Shown here: piece after piece, positions 57,025 to 63,593 of the stretch
How the letters are laid out: every line of letters begins with the position of its first letter
Numbering within the stretch: position 1 is the first letter of the stretch
Source: a phage
Reading direction: 5' to 3' (one strand)
DNA length: 64,000 nucleotides
Sequence record: OZ336096.1
The notes under the pieces: generated by a model
Databases searched by the model: none
What the model saw: the letters and a program-made list of their open reading frames with translations, nothing else
Told to the model about the DNA's origin: nothing
Position numbers and translations under genes: made by a program

Positions 57025-58440
57025 ATGAGCGAATTATTTAAACATGCGCACCTTCATGCAGGTCGAACTGAAAATGGTGCTGTAAACCATACTTCATCAA
57101 TGTCTGCTCTTGTAGACTTTTACAAAGCTGCTGGTTCAAGCCGTAGCAACGTAGAAATCTTACCAGACCTGTTCTACAAAGCTTTGCGTGAAGATGTTGA
57201 TGTTGCAGTTCGTATTTTGCTTCACATGCGAGATGTACGAGAAGGTATGGGTGAGCGTAAAGCCTTCAGAACTGTTTTACTTCAAGCAATCGAAGATAAA
57301 GTTTTAGAGCCTACACAGGTTCTTCGTATTATGGATAAGATTGCAGAACTCGGTCGTTTTGATGACTTCAAAATCTTCGTGGGTACTCGTTTCGAGACAG
57401 ATGCCTTCAAGCATTTAGAAGCAGCATTACTAGACCCTGCAACAGCAGGTTTGGCAGCTAAGTGGTTACCACGAGTCAAACCACGTCATAAGCAGTTTGT
57501 AAAACGTTTCTGTAAGTTTGCCAACTTGAGTGAGAAAGAGTACCGCACACTGTTGTCTGCACTATCTGATACAGTTGAGCAAAAAATCTCTGCTAATGAT
57601 TTTGGTAAGATTGACTACAGCAAGATTCCTTCACTTGCTGCTGCACGTTACCAGAAGCTGTTTAACCGCAAGGATGGAGAACGCTACAAAGCTTACATTG
57701 AGTCCTTATCAAAGGGTGAGACTAAGATTAATGCTGGTGCTGTTTACCCATACGATGTGATTAAATCTGTTAAGCATGGTAATGCAGATGTTGCTAATGA
57801 GCAGTGGAAAGCACTACCAAACTGGATGGCAGAGGGTGAAAACATCTTGTGTATGACTGATGTTTCAGGCTCAATGTCTTGGGTGAATCTTGGTTCAATC
57901 ACCGCCCTTGATATTGGTGTATCACTTGCCTTGTATGTAGCAGAACGTAATACAGGTTGCTTTAAGGATGAGTTAATGGTTTATTCAACAAACCCTTACT
58001 TCATCGAACTGAGTGGTGATTTACGAAACCGTCATCGTCAGGTGATGCGACATGTTGAATATGGCTCAACTAACTTACAAGCAGCTTTTGACCGCATTCT
58101 TGAGACAGGTAAAAGAAATAACTTGACTCAGAAAGATATGCCAAGTAAGCTTATCATCTTCTCCGATATGGAGTTCAATCAGGTTGATGGAGCTAACGGT
58201 CGTACAAACTTTGAAGCAATTCAGAGTAAGTACAAAAAAGCTGGATATGAGATGCCACAACTGGTATTCTGGTACTTAGCAAACCGTAATGGTACTTGCG
58301 AAGTGTCTGTTAAGGATAACGGTGTAGCAATGGTATCTGGTTTCTCTCCAGCCACTTTAAAAGCTCTGCTTGGTGGTGAGAAGTTTGACCCAATCAGCGT
58401 AATGCTCAAAGCAGTAATGATTGACCGTTATATCTGGTAA
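57025..58440 (+). CDS. von Willebrand factor A domain protein with N-terminal helical domain (possibly Ro60/TROVE-like)
   Basis: 471 aa; MIDAS-like DVSGSM in ILCMTDVSGSMSW and downstream vWA-like pattern; helical N-terminal ~270 aa. Confidence 0.5.
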   Translation: MSELFKHAHLHAGRTENGAVNHTSSMSALVDFYKAAGSSRSNVEILPDLFYKALREDVDVAVRILLHMRDVREGMGERKAFRTVLLQAIEDKVLEPTQVLRIMDKIAELGRFDDFKIFVGTRFETDAFKHLEAALLDPATAGLAAKWLPRVKPRHKQFVKRFCKFANLSEKEYRTLLSALSDTVEQKISANDFGKIDYSKIPSLAAARYQKLFNRKDGERYKAYIESLSKGETKINAGAVYPYDVIKSVKHGNADVANEQWKALPNWMAEGENILCMTDVSGSMSWVNLGSITALDIGVSLALYVAERNTGCFKDELMVYSTNPYFIELSGDLRNRHRQVMRHVEYGSTNLQAAFDRILETGKRNNLTQKDMPSKLIIFSDMEFNQVDGANGRTNFEAIQSKYKKAGYEMPQLVFWYLANRNGTCEVSVKDNGVAMVSGFSPATLKALLGGEKFDPISVMLKAVMIDRYIW

Positions 58441-58458
58441 AAAGTTTTAAAAAGGGTA

Positions 58459-58487
58459 TTGACAATGTGTTTGATACCCTTTAATAT
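58459..58487 (+). promoter_or_regulatory. sigma70-like promoter upstream of tRNA cluster
   Basis: TTGACA - 17 nt - TAATAT; weaker second candidate at 58550-58578. Confidence 0.45.
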
Positions 58488-58605
58488 GTTCTACATAGAA
58501 ACGAAACGAGAGCTTTTCTAAGATACTGAAAAATATTTTAAAAAAGTTCTTGACAATCACTAAAAAATAATGTTAAAGTGGTTACATAGAGTTTGAAAAG
58601 TTTAT

Positions 58606-58682
58606 CTCTGTTTAGCTCAGCTTGGTAGAGCGTTCCGTTTGGGGCGGTAAGGCCGGAGGTTCAAGTCCTCCAACAGAGACCA
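58606..58682 (+). tRNA. tRNA-Pro (anticodon UGG)
   Basis: 7 bp acceptor CTCTGTT/AACAGAG, D-arm TAGCTCAGCTTGGTAGAGC, T-loop GGTTCAAGTCC, CCA encoded; hand-folded. Confidence 0.6.
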
Positions 58683-58689
58683 AATTAAT

Positions 58690-58767
58690 GTTCCAGTAGA
58701 CAAAACGGTAAAGTCACCACTCTTTCAAAGTGGATATTTGAGGGTTCAAATCCCTTCTGGAACGCCA
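58690..58767 (+). tRNA. tRNA-Glu (UUC)
   Basis: Acceptor GTTCCAG/CTGGAAC, anticodon loop CTTTCAA, T-loop GGTTCAAATCC. Confidence 0.7.
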
Positions 58768-58858
58768 GTTTTGACAGAAGACCAATTGCAGCAAACTTAA
58801 TCTTATTCATCTGACACGAAATCGGACAAAGAAGAGATTTGGTCTGGTCATTAAGAAT

Positions 58859-58935
58859 TGCGGGTATAGAGAAAGGGCGTCTCACATGTCTCATTAGCAT
58901 GGTATCGGCAGGTTCGACTCCTGCACCCGCCTCCA
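58859..58935 (+). tRNA. tRNA-Met (CAU)
   Basis: Anticodon stem CATGT/GCATG, loop CTCATTA, T-loop GGTTCGACTCC; 1-72 mismatch. Confidence 0.55.
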
Positions 58936-59012
58936 ATTTTGCAGAAGACCGTATTCAGCAACAAAATACTTTTTGCGGATAAAAGAAAAAACACGGTCTG
59001 GCAATGTATTAA

Positions 59013-59089
59013 GGTTAGGAAGCACATAAGGTATGTGCGGTCGCCTGTTAAGCGAATGGCACAGGGTTCGAATCCCTGACTAACCGCCA
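59013..59089 (+). tRNA. tRNA-Asn (GUU)
   Basis: Acceptor GGTTAGG, loop CTGTTAA, T-loop GGTTCGAATCC. Confidence 0.65.
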
Positions 59090-59098
59090 AATTTAAAT

Positions 59099-59186
59099 GT
59101 GTCGTTATCCCGTAGATGGTAGCGGTGGGGACTGTAAATCCCTTGTCATTGAGACTCGGTAGGTTCGACTCCTACACGGCACACCA
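59099..59186 (+). tRNA. tRNA-Tyr (GUA), long variable arm
   Basis: Acceptor GTGTCGT/ACGGCAC, loop CTGTAAA, long variable arm, T-loop GGTTCGACTCC. Confidence 0.65.
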
Positions 59187-59192
59187 AATAAA

Positions 59193-59270
59193 GGTTATGT
59201 AGTTTAATCTGGTTAAAATACTCCCCTGTCACGGGAGATGATGAGGGTTCAAATCCCTTCGTAACCGCCA
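59193..59270 (+). tRNA. tRNA-Asp (GUC)
   Basis: Acceptor GGTTATG/CGTAACC, AC stem CTCCC/GGGAG, loop CTGTCAC. Confidence 0.7.
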
Positions 59271-59493
59271 AATTATAATAAGTATTTCAAGATGATGTTT
59301 TGAGAGGGCTATTTAGCCCCTCCCTTAAAGAGTTCTTACGAGTATTCTTTAAAGGAGCAGAAGACCAAATTCAGCAAGTACGTATGATATTTTCAAGCCA
59401 ATTTAATTTTGAAAAATTTAAAACTTGGTCTGGCTCAACAGATTTACAGAAGACCGTTTACAGCAAAACTTAAACAATCTATTTCTCCGGTAA

Positions 59494-59556
59494 AGAAAAG
59501 GCGAAGGTTCGATTCCTTCACTCGGCAGATGTCGAGTTGGTGTAATGGTAGCACTT
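59494..59556 (+). pseudogene. tRNA-like halves in permuted order (3' half then 5' half)
   Basis: GGCGAAGGTTCGATTCCTTCACTCGGCAG (T-arm + 3' acceptor) immediately followed by GTCGAGTTGGTGTAATGGTAGCAC (5' acceptor + D-arm); the two acceptor strands are complementary to each other. Confidence 0.35.
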
Positions 59557-59727
59557 AAGATGATAAACAACGGTCTGGTAATTATCTTTGTAGATAAGTT
59601 ATTAAGCTTACCTGTGAGTATGCGACCACAAAGGGTGAAAGGGTAAATTCTAGATTTAAACCCAACAAGGCACATCGCTACAGACCTTAAGCAAGTCTGG
59701 GTAGCTTATCTACAAAGATAATTTAAT

Positions 59728-59803
59728 GGAAGTGTAGCAGAATGGTGATGCGGCAGACTTTTAATCTGACAGGCGATGGGTTCGAATCCCTCCACTTCTA
59801 CCA
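59728..59803 (+). tRNA. tRNA-Lys (UUU)
   Basis: Acceptor GGAAGTG/CACTTCT, loop CTTTTAA, T-loop GGTTCGAATCC. Confidence 0.6.
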
Positions 59804-59807
59804 ATAT

Positions 59808-59884
59808 GGTTCAGTCGCAGATAAGGTAATGCAGGGGTCTCATAAGCCCTATGAATGTGGGTTCGATTCCCATCTGAACCTCCA
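59808..59884 (+). tRNA. tRNA with CAU anticodon (Met or lysidine-Ile)
   Basis: Acceptor GGTTCAG/CTGAACC, loop CTCATAA, T-loop GGTTCGATTCC. Confidence 0.6.
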
Positions 59885-59885
59885 A

Positions 59886-59961
59886 GCTGGTATAGTTAAG
59901 AAGGTTATAACACTCCCCTGATAAGGGAACATCGGTGGTTCGATTCCACCTACCAGTACCA
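59886..59961 (+). tRNA. tRNA-Ile (GAU)
   Basis: Acceptor GCTGGTA/TACCAGT, loop CTGATAA, T-loop GGTTCGATTCC. Confidence 0.65.
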
Positions 59962-60298
59962 ATTTCAATAAAGTTGTTGACATTGAGATGTGACCACTTT
60001 TTAGTAACTAAAATACTTCATAATATGTATAATTCAAACACCAATACATGAGCGTTAGACGTAACACAATGTGGGGAAATTTGTTGTACATATTCTGAAT
60101 AGTTTTCGTTGCGTAGCGTCTATTTTGCAAATTTAAAATAAATGCAAACGACAATGTTTTTCTGGCAGTAGCTTGATAGGCTAAACACCAGTGAGGTCTT
60201 CCAATCCCTCATCAAAGAATTTGGCGTACTAGCCCACGGTATGATTAATAAAGTGGGCATCTTTAAGGGCTTTCTAAGAGAGTCTTTAAAGATAATTA

Positions 60299-60380
60299 CG
60301 GGGCGTATCTCAGCTGTCTTCTAAACAGCCGTTAACCGAGTAAGTGGAGTATGCGGGTTCGAGTCCTGCCGCCTCGACCA
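60299..60380 (+). tRNA. atypical tRNA-like gene, possibly tRNA-Arg (UCU)
   Basis: Acceptor CGGGGCG/CGCCTCG + ACCA, T-loop GGTTCGAGTCC, perfect anticodon hairpin GCTGT-CTTCTAA-ACAGC, but no recognisable D-arm and a long segment after the anticodon arm. Confidence 0.35.
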
Positions 60381-60523
60381 ATTTAGTTAGCAGATTACTT
60401 AGACGACCTAAGCGGGTCTTCCTGTAGGGAGGTGGTCTGTATCTCATGTTTTCCAGAACATGTAAATAATCTGAGAAGAAGCTTGACAGTGTTGAGATAA
60501 TACGGTAAGCTTCGAATTATAGT

Positions 60524-60606
60524 ATGGGACGATGTTAAGACTCTAAGGCATGAGCAACGGCTTCCAACACCGTTTCAAAGGGGTTCAACTCCTCCGTCCC
60601 ATGCCA
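60524..60606 (+). tRNA. atypical tRNA-like gene, possibly tRNA-Trp (CCA)
   Basis: Acceptor ATGGGAC/GTCCCAT + GCCA, T-loop GGTTCAACTCC; anticodon region AACGG-CTTCCAACA-CCGTT allows a 7 nt loop (CCA) or a 9 nt loop; extra nucleotides in the D region. Confidence 0.4.
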
Positions 60607-60619
60607 AAGTCTTATTAGG

Positions 60620-60709
60620 GGTAGGTAGCGGCTAATGGTAGCCAAACTGTCTTGAAAACAGTTGCCACTGTAGAGATACGGTGAGGGTTCGACTCCTTTA
60701 CTTACCGCC
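60620..60709 (+). tRNA. tRNA-Ser (UGA), long variable arm
   Basis: AC stem ACTGT/ACAGT, loop CTTGAAA, long variable arm, T-loop GGTTCGACTCC; 3' end GCC (CCA not fully encoded). Confidence 0.65.
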
Positions 60710-60862
60710 TAATAAGATTTAAAGCCAAGCTTCATTCGGATGTTGCTTTGGTATCCCTCGTGTTGTCGAACACACTAATAAAGCACCTAGTAGGTGTCAC
60801 GGAGAAGAGATAATATCAAGCTCTCCAAAGGTCCTAGTCACCGGATTAAACAAGACTATGCA

Positions 60863-60884
60863 AAGACCTTTTTAGGTCTTTTTA
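60863..60884 (+). terminator. intrinsic terminator
   Basis: AAGACCTTTTTAGGTCTT hairpin followed by TTT. Confidence 0.5.
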
Positions 60885-60962
60885 GAGGGCTTCTAAGGTT
60901 ATTGCAGCTTGTTGTGGAACCTTGTTGCTTAGGTTCTTAGAAGTTCTCTAAAAAGATTTAAT

Positions 60963-61040
60963 GGGAGATTGACGGTAATTGGTAAACCTACCATCCTTAG
61001 AAGTTGGTGTTTGAGGGTTCGAATCCCTTGTCTCCTACCA
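60963..61040 (+). tRNA. tRNA with UAG anticodon (Leu-type), short variable arm
   Basis: Acceptor GGGAGAT/GTCTCCT, loop CTTAGAA, T-loop GGTTCGAATCC, discriminator A. Confidence 0.5.
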
Positions 61041-61047
61041 AATTAAT

Positions 61048-61123
61048 GCAGGTGTAGCAAAATGGTTATGCGGCTGACTCTTAATCAGTAAGACGATGGG
61101 TTCAATTCCCTCCACCTGTACCA
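61048..61123 (+). tRNA. tRNA-Lys (CUU)
   Basis: Acceptor GCAGGTG/CACCTGT, loop CTCTTAA, T-loop GGTTCAATTCC. Confidence 0.6.
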
Positions 61124-61129
61124 AACATT

Positions 61130-61205
61130 GGGGATGTAGTTTACATGGTTAAAACATAAGTTTTGCAAACTTAAGTACAGGGTTCAATTCCCTGCTTCTC
61201 CACCA
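61130..61205 (+). tRNA. tRNA-Ala (UGC)
   Basis: AC stem TAAGT/ACTTA, loop TTTGCAA, T-loop GGTTCAATTCC. Confidence 0.65.
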
Positions 61206-61211
61206 ATTAGT

Positions 61212-61286
61212 GCATCCATAGTTTAAACGGGAAAATTACAGTCTTCCAAACTGAGGTTGAGGGTTCGATTCCCTCTGGATGCTCCA
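61212..61286 (+). tRNA. tRNA-Gly (UCC)
   Basis: Perfect acceptor GCATCCA/TGGATGC, loop CTTCCAA, T-loop GGTTCGATTCC. Confidence 0.7.
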
Positions 61287-61293
61287 AATTAAT

Positions 61294-61370
61294 GCTGCTT
61301 TCGTATAATTGGCTATTACACATCCCTTGTAAGGATGGAAATGCAGGTTCGAGTCCTGTGAGCAGCACCA
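61294..61370 (+). tRNA. tRNA-Thr (UGU)
   Basis: Acceptor GCTGCTT/GAGCAGC, AC stem CATCC/GGATG, loop CTTGTAA, T-loop GGTTCGAGTCC. Confidence 0.75.
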
Positions 61371-61465
61371 ATTCAGAGGTCAAGTGAAAGACCGCTGGTG
61401 TCAACTGAAGACCGTAACAAATTCCACGGAGTTGAGTTAGCGGCACAACTTCAGACCTCTTCCAT

Positions 61466-61540
61466 ACTCGCTTAGTTTATATGGTAAAACATCACCCTTA
61501 CAAGATGAAGAAAAAGGTTCAAGTCCTTTAGTGAGTACCA
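61466..61540 (+). tRNA. tRNA-Val (UAC)
   Basis: Acceptor ACTCGCT/AGTGAGT, loop CTTACAA, T-loop GGTTCAAGTCC. Confidence 0.65.
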
Positions 61541-61541
61541 T

Positions 61542-61619
61542 GTTCCAGTATCCCAATTGGCAGAGGATGCAAGCTCAAACCTTGTACTAGTGACGGTTCG
61601 AATCCGTCTTGGAACACCA
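61542..61619 (+). tRNA. tRNA with CAA anticodon (Leu-type), short variable arm
   Basis: Acceptor GTTCCAG/TTGGAAC, AC stem GCAAG/CTTGT, loop CTCAAAC, T-loop GGTTCGAATCC, discriminator A. Confidence 0.5.
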
Positions 61620-61638
61620 ATTTTAAGAGGCTATTTAG

Positions 61639-62196
61639 ATGAGATATTTGAAGTATGCTTCATGGATTTTCCTAGCTTTACTAGAACCATTTGCAGCAAC
61701 CCTAGCAGTCATCTTAGCACCTTTCGTAGTTCCATTCTACAGTGAGAAGAAAGGACATCTACCTTTTGGATTCAGATGGATGGAGACCTATGACAACCCG
61801 ATTGATGGTGATGAAGGCCACGTTAAAAGATGGGCTAAGGTTAGAAAGATTGGTAAGCTGGGTGTCTACATGCAGAGAGTTGGATGGCTCTGGAGAAACA
61901 AAGCTTATAACTTCTCTTACCATGTATTAGGAAGAGATGTAAAAGATGTTACTAAGTGGAAAGGTAATATCAACGTAAGTTCTGACCCTGAAGATAATCA
62001 GACTGGTTATCTCCTAATGTGGAACAGTAATGCTTGGGGATTATTCGCTTTTATCCCATCAATTAAAGTCTTTGGTAAACAGTTTTACTGGAGAATTTAT
62101 ATTGGATGGAAACTAAAAAGTGTTGTCCCAGAAGAAAGAGCATTCTCAAGGGGAAGAGTTATGTTGGCATTCTTTATTCATCCACTGAGAAAGTAA
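61639..62196 (+). CDS. hypothetical membrane-anchored protein embedded in the tRNA cluster
   Basis: 185 aa ORF with AAGAGG RBS; N-terminal hydrophobic helix. Confidence 0.5.
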   Translation: MRYLKYASWIFLALLEPFAATLAVILAPFVVPFYSEKKGHLPFGFRWMETYDNPIDGDEGHVKRWAKVRKIGKLGVYMQRVGWLWRNKAYNFSYHVLGRDVKDVTKWKGNINVSSDPEDNQTGYLLMWNSNAWGLFAFIPSIKVFGKQFYWRIYIGWKLKSVVPEERAFSRGRVMLAFFIHPLRK

Positions 62197-62204
62197 AGAT
62201 TTAA

Positions 62205-62280
62205 AGGGGATTAGTTTACAAGGTTAAAACCTCGGTCTTTGAAATCGAAGAAGTTGGTTCAATTCCAACATCCCCCGCCA
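62205..62280 (+). tRNA. tRNA-Gln (UUG)
   Basis: D-stem GTTT/AAAC, AC stem TCGGT/ATCGA, loop CTTTGAA, T-loop GGTTCAATTCC. Confidence 0.6.
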
Positions 62281-62282
62281 AT

Positions 62283-62361
62283 GCTCCATTACTCCAATTG
62301 GCAGAGAGGCCAGACTTAAAATCTGTGTTATGTATCGGTTCGAATCCGATATGGAGTACCA
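62283..62361 (+). tRNA. tRNA with UAA anticodon (Leu-type), short variable arm
   Basis: Acceptor GCTCCAT/ATGGAGT, loop CTTAAAA, T-loop GGTTCGAATCC, discriminator A. Confidence 0.5.
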
Positions 62362-62366
62362 AATTT

Positions 62367-62442
62367 AGCGGTATAGCATAACTGGCAATGCAGCAGTCTC
62401 TGAAGCTGTCCTATTAAGGTTCAAATCCTTATGCCGCTGCCA
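62367..62442 (+). tRNA. tRNA-Gln (CUG)
   Basis: Acceptor AGCGGTA/TGCCGCT, loop CTCTGAA, T-loop GGTTCAAATCC. Confidence 0.6.
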
Positions 62443-62473
62443 CTTCTAAGGTTTCTTACGAGAGTCCTTAAAT

Positions 62474-62549
62474 GTGGCCTTATCATAAATGGTAATGACC
62501 CATGCTGTGAACATGGTCTATACGGGTTCAAATCCCGTAGGTCACCCCA
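62474..62549 (+). tRNA. tRNA-His (GUG)
   Basis: D-stem TCAT/ATGA, AC stem CCATG/CATGG, loop CTGTGAA, T-loop GGTTCAAATCC. Confidence 0.75.
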
Positions 62550-62555
62550 ATTTAT

Positions 62556-62631
62556 AGTCCAAGTGGCTTATATGGTTAAAGCGCGTGTCTGAAAAACATG
62601 AGAAGAGGGTTCAAATCCCACTGGACTACCA
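62556..62631 (+). tRNA. tRNA-Phe (GAA)
   Basis: Acceptor TAGTCCA/TGGACTA, loop CTGAAAA, T-loop GGTTCAAATCC. Confidence 0.6.
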
Positions 62632-62647
62632 ATTTCAAAGGTGCTTA

Positions 62648-63382
62648 ATGAAAGAGATGACAGAACAAGGTAAGGAGATTTTTAATCTCTTAAAAACCGG
62701 TAAAGGGTTTTCTAATCCCCTTATTACTGGTGCAGCAGTTCTAGGTGGAACCGTGGCTGCCTCTACATCACTTGTAAGCTCTATTAGCTCTGTAACAGAC
62801 CCTACAATGAAGGATAAACTTGTTGCTGCTGGACTTACAACAGTCCTTCTAAACAGCTTTACAACAAGCCTGACAAGCACTACAGCAACTACTAAGACCC
62901 TAACAGACTATGGTCAAAAATCTATTGATGAGTTTTCATCACGTATGCAGGTAGCAAAGGGATACTCCAATGTTATGGGTGCAGCAGGAGAACAAGTTGG
63001 TTGTACACCATTCAGTGGTATTATGGGTGTTGCTACAGAGTATGGTCAAAAAGCTATTGACATGATGAACAGTACACTAGATAGTGTTAATGGTGTGTTA
63101 AGTGACTTACAGGACGCTATTGACAAGGGTCTTGATACTGTTTCTGATTTAGCTAACCAAGCTGTCAGTAAGATTAATGAAGGTATCTCAAAGATTACAG
63201 CTTATGCAGATGAAGTTGTGCAGATGATTGAAGAAGAGGCTGCCCTTATTGCAGAGTACCTTAAAACGAATATCAATGGGTTCTTAGCAGGTATCTTACC
63301 AGACTGGTTTGATGATGCTTGTAAAACTGGTGTAATTGACACTATTGCAACACCAGAAATGAAGAACGCATTACAGAAATAA
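62648..63382 (+). CDS. hypothetical Ser/Thr-rich protein embedded in the tRNA cluster
   Basis: ORF 62585-63382 trimmed to ATG 62648 so it no longer overlaps tRNA-Phe; hydrophobic segment ITGAAVLGGTVAAS; stop abuts tRNA-Ser. Confidence 0.45.
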   Translation: MKEMTEQGKEIFNLLKTGKGFSNPLITGAAVLGGTVAASTSLVSSISSVTDPTMKDKLVAAGLTTVLLNSFTTSLTSTTATTKTLTDYGQKSIDEFSSRMQVAKGYSNVMGAAGEQVGCTPFSGIMGVATEYGQKAIDMMNSTLDSVNGVLSDLQDAIDKGLDTVSDLANQAVSKINEGISKITAYADEVVQMIEEEAALIAEYLKTNINGFLAGILPDWFDDACKTGVIDTIATPEMKNALQK

Positions 63383-63383
63383 T

Positions 63384-63476
63384 GGAAGATTAACCCTAAA
63401 AGGTAAGGGAGCAGTTTGCTAAACTGCCAGTAGCTGAGAAATCGGTGTACCAGTTCAAGTCTGGTATCTTCCTCCA
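63384..63476 (+). tRNA. tRNA-Ser (GCU), long variable arm
   Basis: Perfect acceptor GGAAGAT/ATCTTCC, AC stem GCAGT/ACTGC, loop TTGCTAA, long variable arm, T-loop AGTTCAAGTCT. Confidence 0.8.
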
Positions 63477-63480
63477 ATTT

Positions 63481-63555
63481 GAATCCGTGACAGAAATGGA
63501 TATGTGCCTGTCTGCAAAACAGGTTTATAAGGGTTCGAGTCCCTTCGGATTCTCC
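63481..63555 (+). tRNA. tRNA-Cys (GCA)
   Basis: Perfect acceptor GAATCCG/CGGATTC, AC stem CCTGT/ACAGG, loop CTGCAAA, T-loop GGTTCGAGTCC. Confidence 0.8.
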
Positions 63556-63593
63556 AAGTTATTTTACTCTCTCTCAATTAAAATAATAATAAT

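What the first reader, a model, noticed from the sequence alone, without database searches (positions are those of the whole stretch)
58775..59580. Recurrent paired box elements flanking the spacers between tRNAs
Four spacers each begin with CAGAAGACC followed a few bases later by (T)TCAGCAA (at about 58775, 58942, 59348, 59447) and end with GGTCTGG (about 58842, 58994, 59426, 59571). The AGACC and GGTCT cores are complementary, so each spacer can be looped out by a stem. This looks like a set of processing stems for the polycistronic tRNA precursor, or mobile mini-elements. The last unit contains the permuted tRNA halves. A related variant, GAAGACCG paired with CAGACC, appears at about 61401 and 61457.
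Basis: seen in the sequence. Interest (0 to 1): 0.4.

Follow-up and report, generated by a model that had tools for sequence, protein, structure and literature searches.

The report
Y-like RNAs beside phage Ro gene
The repeated boxes are the paired ends and a conserved nine-base tag of four small non-coding RNAs that sit in a phage tRNA cluster just after a Ro60-like protein gene; the same RNA design accompanies that gene in most of the unrelated phages sampled, and it closely resembles an orphan RNA class of social amoebae.

Summary

Each unit forms a terminal 7-bp helix, followed by single-stranded nUnCAGCAA, a variable core, the 3' strand and an unpaired G. Unit 4 carries a circularly permuted tRNA-like domain, as in bacterial YrlA Y RNAs.

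The same "handle", with at least 44 different covarying stems, lies next to DUF2828 genes on the same strand in 64 of 80 viral loci (124 hits versus 2 on the opposite strand). It is also found in Myco-, Listeria, Staphylococcus, Enterococcus and Campylobacter phages.

Best reading: these are Y-RNA-like partners of a divergent Ro60, released from the tRNA precursor. They are not mere processing stems or mobile elements. Binding and function are inferred, not shown.

No Rfam family or paper found describes the handle. It differs from the canonical GNCGAA motif and nearly matches Dictyostelium Class I RNAs (5' G, 6-bp stem, UACAGCAA, 3' UG). That link is untested.

The parts
57025..58440 (+). Gene for a 471-aa divergent Ro60-like protein (helical ring plus vWA/MIDAS domain), the proposed protein partner of the RNAs
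58459..58579 (+). Two near-consensus sigma-70-type promoters (58459-58487 and 58550-58579) between the gene and the first tRNA; likely start of the tRNA/small-RNA transcript
   Evidence: TTGACA-17-TAATAT and TTGACA-18-TAAAGT, 10 of 12 matches each. No + strand terminator-like site between 58600 and 59700. These are consensus matches only.
58772..58850 (+). Unit 1, short Y-like RNA between tRNA-Glu and tRNA-Met
   Evidence: Outer helix 58772-58775/58847-58850. AGA (58776-58778) lies opposite unpaired G58846. Handle helix 58779-58785/58839-58845. Spacer UUG plus CAGCAA 58786-58794.
58939..59004 (+). Unit 2, short Y-like RNA between tRNA-Met and tRNA-Asn
   Evidence: Outer helix 58939-58942/59001-59004. 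Handle helix 58946-58952/58993-58999. AUU plus CAGCAA 58953-58961. Unpaired G59000. Fold z -2.5. Full-length but weak hit to Rfam Dicty_Class_I_RNA, 24 bits.
59355..59436 (+). Unit 3, short Y-like RNA
   Evidence: Outer helix 59355-59358/59433-59436. Handle helix 59362-59368/59425-59431. AUU plus CAGCAA 59369-59377. Unpaired G59432.
59444..59581 (+). Unit 4, long Y-like RNA with a YrlA-type tRNA mimic
   Evidence: Outer helix 59444-59447/59578-59581. Handle helix 59451-59457/59570-59576. UUA plus CAGCAA 59458-59466. Unpaired G59577. Rfam tRNA model gives a partial hit of 25 bits, E 0.0017.
59482..59555 (+). Circularly permuted tRNA-like module inside unit 4: V hairpin, T arm, acceptor stem closed by a 4-nt loop, D arm
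   Evidence: V hairpin 59482-59498. T arm GAAGG-UUCGAUU-CCUUC 59503-59519. Acceptor ACUCGGC-AGAU-GUCGAGU 59520-59537. D arm about 59538-59555. Citrobacter phage Mordin has ACCCUUC/GAAGGGU at the same place. 15 of 17 long units in other phages have a 6-7-bp closed acceptor, with 13 different sequences.

Best explanation
The four units are genes for small non-coding RNAs of the Y-RNA kind. They are most likely the RNA partners of the Ro60-like protein encoded just upstream.

Each RNA has a constant 'handle' and a variable core. The handle is a terminal helix of one A-U or U-A pair plus six covarying pairs that begin with G-C. It is followed immediately by single-stranded n-U-n-CAGCAA on the 5' side, with an A-rich run and one unpaired G on the 3' side. 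The core is short in units 1-3. In unit 4 it is a circularly permuted tRNA mimic, the YrlA design.

I infer three further steps:
- The RNAs are co-transcribed with the tRNAs from the promoters at 58459-58579.
- They are freed by the tRNA-processing nucleases that cut the flanking tRNAs.
- Their handle is then bound by the Ro60-like ring, and the variable core recruits or decoys other factors. For the tRNA mimic these would be tRNA-binding enzymes or tRNA-targeting nucleases.

By analogy with Rsr-Y RNA-PNPase and the rsr-yrlBA-rtcBA operon, the particle probably serves RNA or tRNA quality control, repair or counter-defence during infection.

What the sequence analysis supports: the structure, its covariation, its linkage to the gene, the Ro60 fold and the tRNA-like module. 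What is inferred: binding, processing and function.
For: Structure: all four units fold with the boxes paired, and the outer helices covary between units.

Linkage to the gene:
- In 80 viral loci chosen only by the protein (40-99% identity), a strict scan finds 124 handles on the gene strand against 2 on the opposite strand.
- 114 of the 124 lie within 1.5 kb of the gene, and 64 of the 80 loci have at least one.
- Most of the other 16 loci have a CUGCAA variant right after the gene.
- No protein-coding neighbour is conserved.

Features the scan did not require are nonetheless conserved:
- The middle spacer base is U in 92 of 92 handles.
- The base before the G and the base after the 3' strand covary: A-U 69, U-A 18, other 5 (Fisher p 2e-14).
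- There are 44 distinct stems (pair counts).

Breadth:
- In bacterial and archaeal genome contigs, mostly metagenome-assembled, the scan gives 48 hits against 5 on the opposite strand.
- Named phages with units beside the gene: Lewan, LP-083-2, EFDG1, CP81, Mordin and S-CoN_Ph3.

tRNA mimic:
- The Rfam YrlA model hits long units in relatives at E 2e-6 to 1e-4.
- 15 of 17 long units have covarying closed acceptor stems.

Specificity: phage T5 has a large tRNA cluster, and no Tequintavirus appeared among the listed tblastn hits for this protein. It has 0 strict hits in 50 kb.

Modularity and possible autoregulation:
- A closed, permuted handle sits in the anticodon position of tRNA-like RNAs.
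- Minimal handles abut the Shine-Dalgarno sequence of the Ro-like gene in several lineages, which fits autoregulatory binding.

Precedent: bacterial and phage Ro60 proteins bind adjacent Y-like RNAs (PMC4201824, PMC12135203).
Against: - No expression, RNA-end or binding data exist for any member.
- The canonical Ro-binding motif (GNCGAAN0-1G or GGUCCGA) is absent.
- The Rfam YrlA model does not score unit 4 at all, and in phage Lewan it matches only the tRNA-like core.
- Fold energies of single units are only modestly better than shuffles (z -1.2 to -2.5).
- In a motif-first scan, 28 of 33 complete handles had no DUF2828 gene inside the fetched stretch; many of these lie in tRNA arrays. Adjacency is therefore not obligatory, and genome-level co-occurrence is untested.
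- Another protein could be the true ligand.
- The inner six pairs in the covariation count were selected by the scan itself, so that part of the count is circular.
Confidence: 0.72

Rival explanations
1. The stems are processing or punctuation signals of the polycistronic tRNA precursor. A host or phage endonuclease recognises each stem to excise the spacer, and the spacer RNA has no function of its own.
For: The units sit between tRNAs in one apparent transcription unit. Felixounavirus units have an extra outer 4-bp helix with an AGA/G internal loop that could be a nuclease site. Many handle-bearing loci found by motif are tRNA arrays.
Against: Roughly half of the 80 protein-selected loci have the handle but no tRNA within 4 kb. 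An invariant single-stranded motif, a covarying terminal pair and elaborate cores such as tRNA mimics are not needed for a cleavage signal. The handle also occurs as a closed hairpin inside a tRNA-like RNA. T5's tRNA cluster lacks it. The outer helix is lineage-specific; elsewhere there is no pairing beyond +-1.
Confidence: 0.1
2. The units are small mobile DNA elements (MITE-like, with short terminal inverted repeats) that have inserted between tRNA genes.
For: There are several similar copies with inverted-repeat ends within 800 bp. Phage tRNA clusters are known insertion hot spots for homing endonuclease genes, and HNH genes are annotated in relatives.
Against: All four units are at syntenic positions in every Felixounavirus or Mooglevirus locus examined, even where tRNA-Asp or other segments are lost. 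There are no target-site duplications. The units lie strictly on one strand relative to the gene (124 vs 2). Stems differ by compensatory changes, including G-U wobble, that preserve RNA pairing rather than DNA identity. The arms are only about 7 nt.
Confidence: 0.03
3. The handle is a real RNA module, but its ligand is not the DUF2828 protein. It could be a host factor such as PNPase, RNase P, RtcB, Hfq or ProQ, or another phage protein. The Ro-like protein would then be linked only by shared function, or would bind the variable core.
For: Handles occur in tRNA arrays more than 2.5 kb from any DUF2828 gene. The canonical Ro-binding motif is absent (PMC4201824). In the phiLo system PNPase binds the Yrl RNAs directly (PMC12135203).
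Against: The gene is the only conserved neighbour across very diverse phages. Handles abut or overlap its ribosome-binding site in several lineages. The one checked distant array (L168) is on a contig that does carry the gene (L037). Hosts range from Mycobacterium to Campylobacter, which argues against one host-specific ligand.
Confidence: 0.12

Closest known systems
Bacterial Y RNAs YrlA/YrlB with Rsr (Ro60), e.g. Salmonella rsr-yrlBA-rtcBA and M. smegmatis (Chen et al. 2014, PMC4201824; Rfam RF02553)
   Same: Small RNAs are encoded within 2-4 kb of a Ro60-type gene on the same strand. There are several per locus, processed from a common precursor. 5' and 3' ends pair. One long RNA carries a permuted tRNA-like domain (T arm, closed acceptor, D arm, V arm), and there are shorter RNAs without it. 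Relatives' long units get YrlA hits at E about 1e-6.
   Different: The protein is the DUF2828 branch, with no Pfam TROVE hit. The protein-proximal motif is nUnCAGCAA next to a 7-bp helix, not GNCGAAN0-1G. Rfam YrlA scores are below threshold or absent. The units are interleaved with genuine tRNA genes.
Dictyostelium Class I RNAs (Rfam RF01414; Kjellin et al. 2021, PMC7919456)
   Same: 5' G; a 6-bp terminal stem whose sequence covaries; UACAGCAA right after the 5' strand; a variable, A-rich core; the 3' strand followed by UG; median length 58 nt against about 50-62 nt; multi-copy; rare long variants with structured inserts. RF01414 is the only Rfam family that aligns full-length to the short phage units.
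   Different: The spacer is 4 nt (CUUA) rather than 3. Scores of 13-24 bits are far below the 41.5-bit threshold. These are eukaryotic genes with a DUSE promoter. The known direct binder is the RRM protein Rnp1A. No link to a DUF2828 or Ro-like protein is reported, and the authors found the class only in Dictyostelia.
Thermus phage phiLo Ro60 with Yrl1/Yrl2 (PMC12135203), and the mycobacteriophage, CcrColossus and Bacillus phage G Ro60/YrlA pairs cited there
   Different: Those are reported as Ro60/TROVE homologues whose RNAs were defined by the CGAA motif. The system here has neither a Pfam TROVE hit nor the CGAA motif, and it is embedded in a tRNA array.
Metazoan Y RNAs with Ro60
   Different: The metazoan handle is GGUCCGA/UUGACC with a bulged C. 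Metazoan Y RNAs are RNA polymerase III transcripts with a La-binding U tail and no tRNA mimic.
Stable small RNAs of unknown function in phage tRNA clusters (T5 RNAI, RNAIII, RNAIV, RNA1, RNA2 as annotated in NC_005859; T4 species 1 and 2 from memory)
   Same: Non-tRNA small RNAs are co-encoded and presumably co-processed with phage tRNAs. Some are tRNA-like.
   Different: The T5 RNAs have long terminal helices and no CAGCAA handle. T5 did not appear among the listed DUF2828 hits. They resemble the separate element at window 59579-59727 more than units 1-4.
Circularly permuted tRNA genes (Cyanidioschyzon merolae; from memory)
   Same: The 3' half of the tRNA-like sequence precedes the 5' half.
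   Different: Those give functional tRNAs through a circular intermediate. Here the acceptor stem is closed by a 4-nt loop with no CCA end, and the break lies at the D arm/anticodon junction and leads into the handle, as in YrlA.

Membership tests
Ro60 / TROVE-vWA protein family (for the gene at 57025-58440) | Ring of helical (HEAT-like) repeats followed by a vWA domain with a MIDAS site | tested here: met
Ro60 / TROVE-vWA protein family (for the gene at 57025-58440) | Sequence membership in Pfam TROVE (PF05731) | tested here: not met
   Only DUF2828, DUF7788 and a weak VWA_CoxE hit, even at E<=10. A profile search of PDB sequences finds no Ro60. The protein is therefore a structural homologue in a separate sequence family.
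Bacterial Y RNA, YrlA type (Rfam RF02553) | Encoded within about 4 kb of the Ro60-type gene on the same strand | tested here: met
   The units lie 335-1140 nt downstream on the + strand. 114 of 124 handles in 80 loci are within 1.5 kb.
Bacterial Y RNA, YrlA type (Rfam RF02553) | tRNA-like domain: T arm, D arm, V arm and an acceptor stem closed by a loop, with 5'/3' ends paired elsewhere | tested here: met
   Met for unit 4 at 59482-59555. Covarying closed acceptors in 15 of 17 long units. Units 1-3 lack the domain, like YrlB.
Bacterial Y RNA, YrlA type (Rfam RF02553) | GNCGAAN0-1G motif near the 5' end (proposed Ro contact) | tested here: not met
   The 5' regions read AGACCnnnUnCAGCAA. In phage Lewan the YrlA model aligns only positions 30-81, the tRNA-like core.
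Bacterial Y RNA, YrlA type (Rfam RF02553) | Score at or above the Rfam gathering threshold (69 bits) | tested here: not met
   No hit on unit 4 even in a 151-nt search at E<=10. Relatives score 21-43 bits.
Bacterial Y RNA, YrlA type (Rfam RF02553) | Physical association with the Ro60 orthologue | not testable with these tools
   Needs RIP, CLIP or EMSA.
Dictyostelium Class I RNA (Rfam RF01414) | Short stem joining the 5' and 3' ends, with structure conserved and sequence variable, and an invariant 5' G | tested here: met
   7-bp helix, 44 stem variants, G-C pair 64 of 64. In Dicty, 34 of 34 start with G and 33 of 34 have at least 5 of 6 bp.
Dictyostelium Class I RNA (Rfam RF01414) | Conserved ~11-nt motif (CCUUACAGCAA in the Rfam consensus) adjacent to the 5' strand of the stem | tested here: inconclusive
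   Unit 4 has UUUACAGCAA. Units 1-3 have UUGCAGCAA or AUUCAGCAA. The commonest phage form is UUACAGCAA. The spacer is one nucleotide shorter, and the leading CC is absent.
Dictyostelium Class I RNA (Rfam RF01414) | Conserved ends: AAG at the start and CUGU at the finish | tested here: inconclusive
   Genomic flanks in many phages read AAAG...CUGU(U). In the window they read GAAG...CUGG. The ends of the mature RNA are unknown.
Dictyostelium Class I RNA (Rfam RF01414) | Score at or above the Rfam gathering threshold (41.5 bits) | tested here: not met
   24 bits for unit 2, 12.8 for unit 4, 14-16 for units in L045 and L161.
Dictyostelium Class I RNA (Rfam RF01414) | Dictyostelid gene context (DUSE promoter about 60 nt upstream) | tested here: not met
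   The units lie in a phage tRNA operon with sigma-70-type promoters.
MITE-like mobile element | Presence/absence polymorphism with target-site duplication; copies in either orientation | tested here: not met
   Four syntenic units in L001-L006, Mordin and HK3. One strand only.

The most novel reading that the evidence does not exclude
The stem-nUnCAGCAA-...-stem-G handle is the recognition element of the whole DUF2828 branch of Ro60-like proteins. That branch has 8,648 cluster representatives and, from my memory of Pfam, also occurs in plants, kinetoplastids and amoebae. Under this reading, Dictyostelium Class I RNAs, an abundant and developmentally important RNA class reported as unique to dictyostelids, are the eukaryotic members of the same RNA family. 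Class I RNAs would then be 'Y RNAs' of a DUF2828-type Ro paralogue, and a single ribonucleoprotein design would span phages of at least six bacterial phyla and eukaryotes. In phages, the interchangeable cores (tRNA mimics and others) would act as programmable adaptors or decoys against tRNA-targeting host defences.
Probability: 0.33. Interest if true: 0.9.

Novelty: new variant of a known kind. Interest (0 to 1): 0.7.

Why it matters
Ro60-Y RNA particles are known from animals, some bacteria and a few phages. The large DUF2828 family is still annotated only as 'hypothetical', 'vWFA' or 'RNA-binding', and no RNA partner is assigned to it. It occurs in 710 of 50,697 phage records and has about 8,600 cluster representatives.

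This finding gives that family a precise and easily searchable RNA signature. It explains unannotated gaps, 'tRNA-OTHER' or pseudogene calls and spurious tiny ORFs in phage tRNA clusters. It also shows that the tRNA-mimic module of Y RNAs is attached to a second, unrelated protein handle.

It makes two questions directly testable:
- What do Ro-like particles do for tRNA-rich phages: tRNA repair or quality control, or decoys against anticodon nucleases?
- What is the missing partner and origin of Dictyostelium Class I RNAs?

Tried and rejected
- A covariance model of the handle alone (R1, from 64 equal-length constructs) could not tolerate the 20-100-nt natural cores. The true units scored only 11-13 bits among noise, so I used a rule-based scanner with opposite-strand and shuffle controls instead.
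- MAFFT on natural short units failed to align the 3' strands.
- A loose scanner (one mismatch, CWGCA) is too noisy in coding DNA: 36 hits on the + strand and 46 on the - strand of the window.
- Rfam: no family reaches its threshold on any unit. Hammerhead, HDV-like, twister and other self-cleaving ribozyme ideas found no support.
- The AlphaFold-database fold libraries were not installed. A search for DUF2828-type peptide words in the truncated D. discoideum proteome held as a supplement found nothing. Whether Dictyostelium has a DUF2828 protein therefore stays open.
- Avesson et al. 2011, which lists four proteins pulled down with DdR-21, is not held.
- Literature: 'DUF2828' occurs in 5 held papers, none about RNA. 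No paper combines Felixounavirus with Ro60 or Y RNA. UUACAGCAA returns only siRNA or primer hits.
- A search for a conserved protein neighbour (RtcB, ligase, PNPase) across 80 loci found none. RtcB is near the gene in Listeria phage LP-083-2 only.
- The motif-first reverse test was only partly informative, because the fetched stretches are short.
Full report
**What is there**

The window belongs to a Felixounavirus (FelixO1-like myophage). Region 58400-62000 is 95-98% identical to Escherichia and Salmonella phages of that genus. A cluster of 24 tRNA genes runs on the + strand from 58606 to 63556.

- CAGAAGACC occurs at 58775, 58942, 59358 (not 59348) and 59447.
- The composite AGAAGACC-N4-8-CAGCAA occurs four times against 0.02 expected.
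- GGTCTGG closes each unit at 58841, 58995, 59427 and 59572.

A strict structural scan returns exactly these four units on the + strand of the 64-kb window and nothing on the - strand.

**Anatomy**

All four units fold the same way. From the outside in, each has:
- an outer 4-bp helix that differs in sequence but stays paired in each unit (UGAC/GUCA, UUGC/GCAA, GAGC/GCUC, UUAC/GUAA);
- an internal loop, AGA opposite a single G;
- a 7-8-bp helix, AGACCnn/nnGGUCU;
- a single-stranded n-U-n-CAGCAA directly after the 5' strand.

Units 1-3 (58772-58850, 58939-59004, 59355-59436) have short A/U-rich cores.

Unit 4 (59444-59581) contains a complete but circularly permuted tRNA-like domain: a V hairpin, a T arm (GAAGG-UUCGAUU-CCUUC), an acceptor stem closed by the loop AGAU, and a D arm. 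A short helix links this domain to the handle. This is the topology described for bacterial YrlA Y RNAs (PMC4201824). The Rfam tRNA model matches part of it (25 bits, E 0.0017), but the YrlA model does not score it.

**The neighbouring gene**

The 471-aa ORF at 57025-58440 ends 335 nt before unit 1.
- It has Pfam DUF2828 plus DUF7788 and no TROVE hit. It belongs to PHROG 850, 'RNA-binding protein'.
- D-x-S-x-S, T349 and D381, which I read as MIDAS residues, are invariant.

It is therefore a divergent Ro60 in a separate sequence family. That family is large: 8,648 representatives at 50% identity and 710 of 50,697 phage records. It includes mycobacteriophage genes already annotated 'Ro-like RNA binding protein'.

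**Comparative test**

I fetched 80 viral contigs by the protein alone. Most share only 40-48% identity with it.

Next to the gene and on the same strand, they carry RNAs of the same design but with different stem sequences. Examples are GGAUCA-UUA-CAGCAA...UGAUCC-AG in L071 and five tandem units in L007.

The strict scan gives these results:
- 124 hits on the gene strand against 2 on the opposite strand.
- 114 hits lie within 1.5 kb of the gene but outside it.
- 64 of the 80 loci are positive.
- Most of the remaining 16 loci have a CUGCAA variant directly after the gene.

No protein-coding neighbour is shared across these loci. About half of them have no tRNA within 4 kb, so the RNA goes with the gene and not with tRNA clusters as such.

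Three features that the scan did not demand are conserved:
- The middle spacer base is U in 92 of 92 handles.
- The base before the 5' G and the base after the 3' strand covary (A-U 69, U-A 18, other 5; Fisher p 2e-14).
- The run before the 3' strand is A-rich.

There are 44 distinct stems. On a 64-row handle alignment the unselected outer pair reads AU 50, UA 11, other 3. The inner six pairs were selected by the scan, so their covariation count is circular. Their reality rests on the strand asymmetry instead. Beyond the +-1 pair there is no general pairing, so the outer helix and the AGA/G loop are a speciality of the Felixounavirus lineage.

Bacterial and archaeal genome contigs (mostly metagenome-assembled; 33-43% identity) give 48 hits against 5. 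The Clostridia-type loci use variants of the form AAAG-stem-(UAA/NNA)CAGCAA...stem-CUUG.

In L127, L148 and L156 the handle is closed by a GUCA loop. There it sits, circularly permuted, in the anticodon position of otherwise normal tRNA-like RNAs. This shows that the handle is a self-contained module.

Named phages with units beside the gene:
- Mycobacterium phage Lewan: three units, the middle one tRNA-like.
- Listeria phage LP-083-2: three units, with an RtcB-like ligase nearby.
- Enterococcus phage EFDG1.
- Campylobacter phage CP81.
- Staphylococcus phage S-CoN_Ph3.
- Citrobacter phage Mordin: four syntenic units, a G-U change in unit 1, and a fully compensated different acceptor stem in unit 4.

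Among long units, 15 of 17 with a T arm have a 6-7-bp closed acceptor stem, in 13 different sequences. Rfam YrlA hits several of them at E 2e-6 to 1e-4, but only through the tRNA-like core.

**Controls and limits**

- Phage T5 has a large tRNA cluster, and no Tequintavirus was among the listed hits for this protein. It has no strict hit in 50 kb on either strand, although it encodes other stable small RNAs.
- Escherichia phage HK3 keeps all four units although tRNA-Asp is lost.
- A motif-first scan of viral contigs (AAAGGNNNNTTACAGCAA) gave 121 matches, of which 33 had a complete handle. Five of those 33 had the gene 66-492 nt away on the same strand. None of the 88 handle-less matches had the gene. 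The other 28 mostly lie in tRNA arrays, and one of them is on a contig that carries the gene elsewhere.

Units can therefore be dispersed. Genome-wide co-occurrence remains untested.

**Mechanism**

The best-supported reading is that units 1-4 are Y-RNA-like non-coding RNAs whose handle is bound by the Ro60-like protein. Units 1-3 would be YrlB-like and unit 4 YrlA-like.

Supported by computation: a conserved, covarying structure; linkage to the gene; the Ro60 fold; the tRNA mimic.

Inferred:
- co-transcription from the two near-consensus promoters at 58459-58487 and 58550-58579, with no intervening terminator;
- release by the nucleases that process the flanking tRNAs;
- binding of the handle by the protein;
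- a role in RNA or tRNA surveillance, repair or counter-defence. This is by analogy with Rsr-Y RNA-PNPase, with rsr-yrlBA-rtcBA (PMC4201824) and with phiLo Ro60, which binds its Yrl RNAs and host PNPase in vitro (PMC12135203).

One supporting hint comes from the gene's own leader. In 27 of 167 loci a handle ends within 25 nt of the gene's start codon. In KVP40-like phages, a minimal 30-40-nt handle runs into the Shine-Dalgarno sequence. That is what one expects if the protein binds the handle and autoregulates.

Rivals are pure processing stems, mobile mini-elements, and a different ligand. They are weighed in their own section of this report.

**Comparison with what is known**

The system works like a Ro60-Y RNA particle, but it fails membership of the curated families. 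There is no Pfam TROVE hit, no GNCGAAN0-1G or CGAA motif, and no Rfam YrlA score at threshold.

The closest match to the handle itself was unexpected: Dictyostelium Class I RNAs. RF01414 is the only Rfam model that aligns end to end with the short units, but at only 13-24 bits against a 41.5-bit threshold.

Published features of Class I RNAs are a covarying 6-bp terminal stem, an invariant 5' G, an ~11-nt motif next to the 5' strand, conserved ends (AAG at the start, CUGU at the finish), and a length of 42-65 nt (PMC7919456). The 34 distinct curated D. discoideum sequences match the phage handle closely:
- 34 of 34 start with G.
- 31 have CAGCAA at nt 11-16.
- 30 have UA just before it.
- 33 have at least 5 of 6 stem pairs.
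- 34 end in UG.
- The median length is 58 nt.

The only structural difference is one extra spacer nucleotide.

Kjellin et al. found this class in no other organism. Its only known direct binder is the RRM protein Rnp1A. Whether dictyostelids encode a DUF2828 protein could not be checked here. From memory, Pfam lists eukaryotic members of the family, and four of the five held papers that mention DUF2828 concern plants. The link is therefore a hypothesis, at about one chance in three.

**Novelty and verdict**

I found no Rfam family and no held paper that describes the handle or assigns an RNA partner to DUF2828 proteins.

The general principle, a phage or bacterial Ro60 with adjacent Y-like RNAs that include tRNA mimics, is known. 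I therefore rate this a new variant of a known kind. It is widespread, easy to test, and has a potentially far-reaching eukaryotic connection.

Interest 0.7.

Noticed in passing
window 59579-59727 (+): A 149-nt element between unit 4 and tRNA-Lys folds into a 24-bp terminal helix enclosing 3-4 small hairpins (z -5.85). The long helix keeps pairing through 4 compensatory changes in Citrobacter phage Mordin. There is no Rfam hit. Its layout recalls the T5 'stable RNAs with unknown functions' (RNAIII, RNAIV).
   Followed up: partly
window 61371-61465 (+): The spacer between tRNA-Thr and tRNA-Val folds into a long imperfect hairpin (AGAGGUC/GACCUCU at the base, z -3.0).
   Followed up: partly
window 60298-60380 (+): A tRNA-like sequence (Rfam tRNA-Sec model, 23 bits) is not called by ARAGORN here, whereas ARAGORN calls a tRNA-Arg at about the corresponding position of the array in relatives L001 and L002 (synteny inferred from array order, not from an alignment). 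It may be a degenerate or unusual tRNA-Arg.
   Followed up: no
window 61639-62196 and 62585-63382 (+): Two protein-coding ORFs (Pfam DUF7338 and DUF7217) are embedded in the tRNA array, and relatives carry HNH endonuclease genes in this region. The array is a mosaic of tRNAs, small RNAs and ORFs.
   Followed up: no
L013 1764-1795, L021 2859-2890, L043 3950-3985, L165 (Vibrio phage nt-1) 1965-2005, and others: Minimal 30-40-nt handles (stem plus nnACAGCAA plus stem plus G) lie in the 5' leader of the Ro-like gene itself and run into its Shine-Dalgarno sequence or start codon. A handle ends within 25 nt of the start in 27 of 167 loci. This suggests translational autoregulation.
   Followed up: partly
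L127 about 1990-2020, L148 about 1715-1745 and 2120-2150, L156 about 1955-1985: In Lachnospiraceae-type loci the handle is circularly permuted and closed by a GUCA loop (..GCGCUUU-GUCA-AAAGCGC-UUG-CAGCAA..). It replaces the anticodon arm of otherwise normal-looking tRNA-like RNAs.
   Followed up: partly
L167 (Staphylococcus phage S-CoN_Ph3) 3471-3560 and 3690-3818: Tiny annotated 'hypothetical protein' CDSs overlie three tandem handle-bearing units and are probably mis-annotations. In Felixounavirus records, 'tRNA-OTHER' or 'putative tRNA pseudogene' features are annotated in this region, and unit 4 is the likely target of those calls (not checked by coordinates).
   Followed up: no
L162 (Listeria phage LP-083-2) 4079-5458: An HD-type phosphohydrolase and an RtcB-like RNA ligase lie 0.6-1.3 kb downstream of the Ro-like gene and its three units. 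This echoes the Salmonella rsr-yrlBA-rtcBA arrangement, but the neighbourhood is not general.
   Followed up: partly
L009 3277-3371, L018 2596-2698, L020 1411-1519, L043 3735-3829: A subgroup of long units in KVP40-like contigs shares a non-tRNA core (..CCUUUCUGGAGGGGAAAG..AAAAACUCGCCAAAAC..). This looks like a second conserved 'cargo' module of unknown partner.
   Followed up: no
L288 (phage T5) 30284-33949 (- strand): T5's annotated stable RNAs (RNAI, RNAIII, RNAIV, RNA1-3, RNA2H) in its tRNA cluster lack the CAGCAA handle. Several have long terminal helices or tRNA-like parts. They remain functionally unexplained and may be analogous cargo for another protein.
   Followed up: partly
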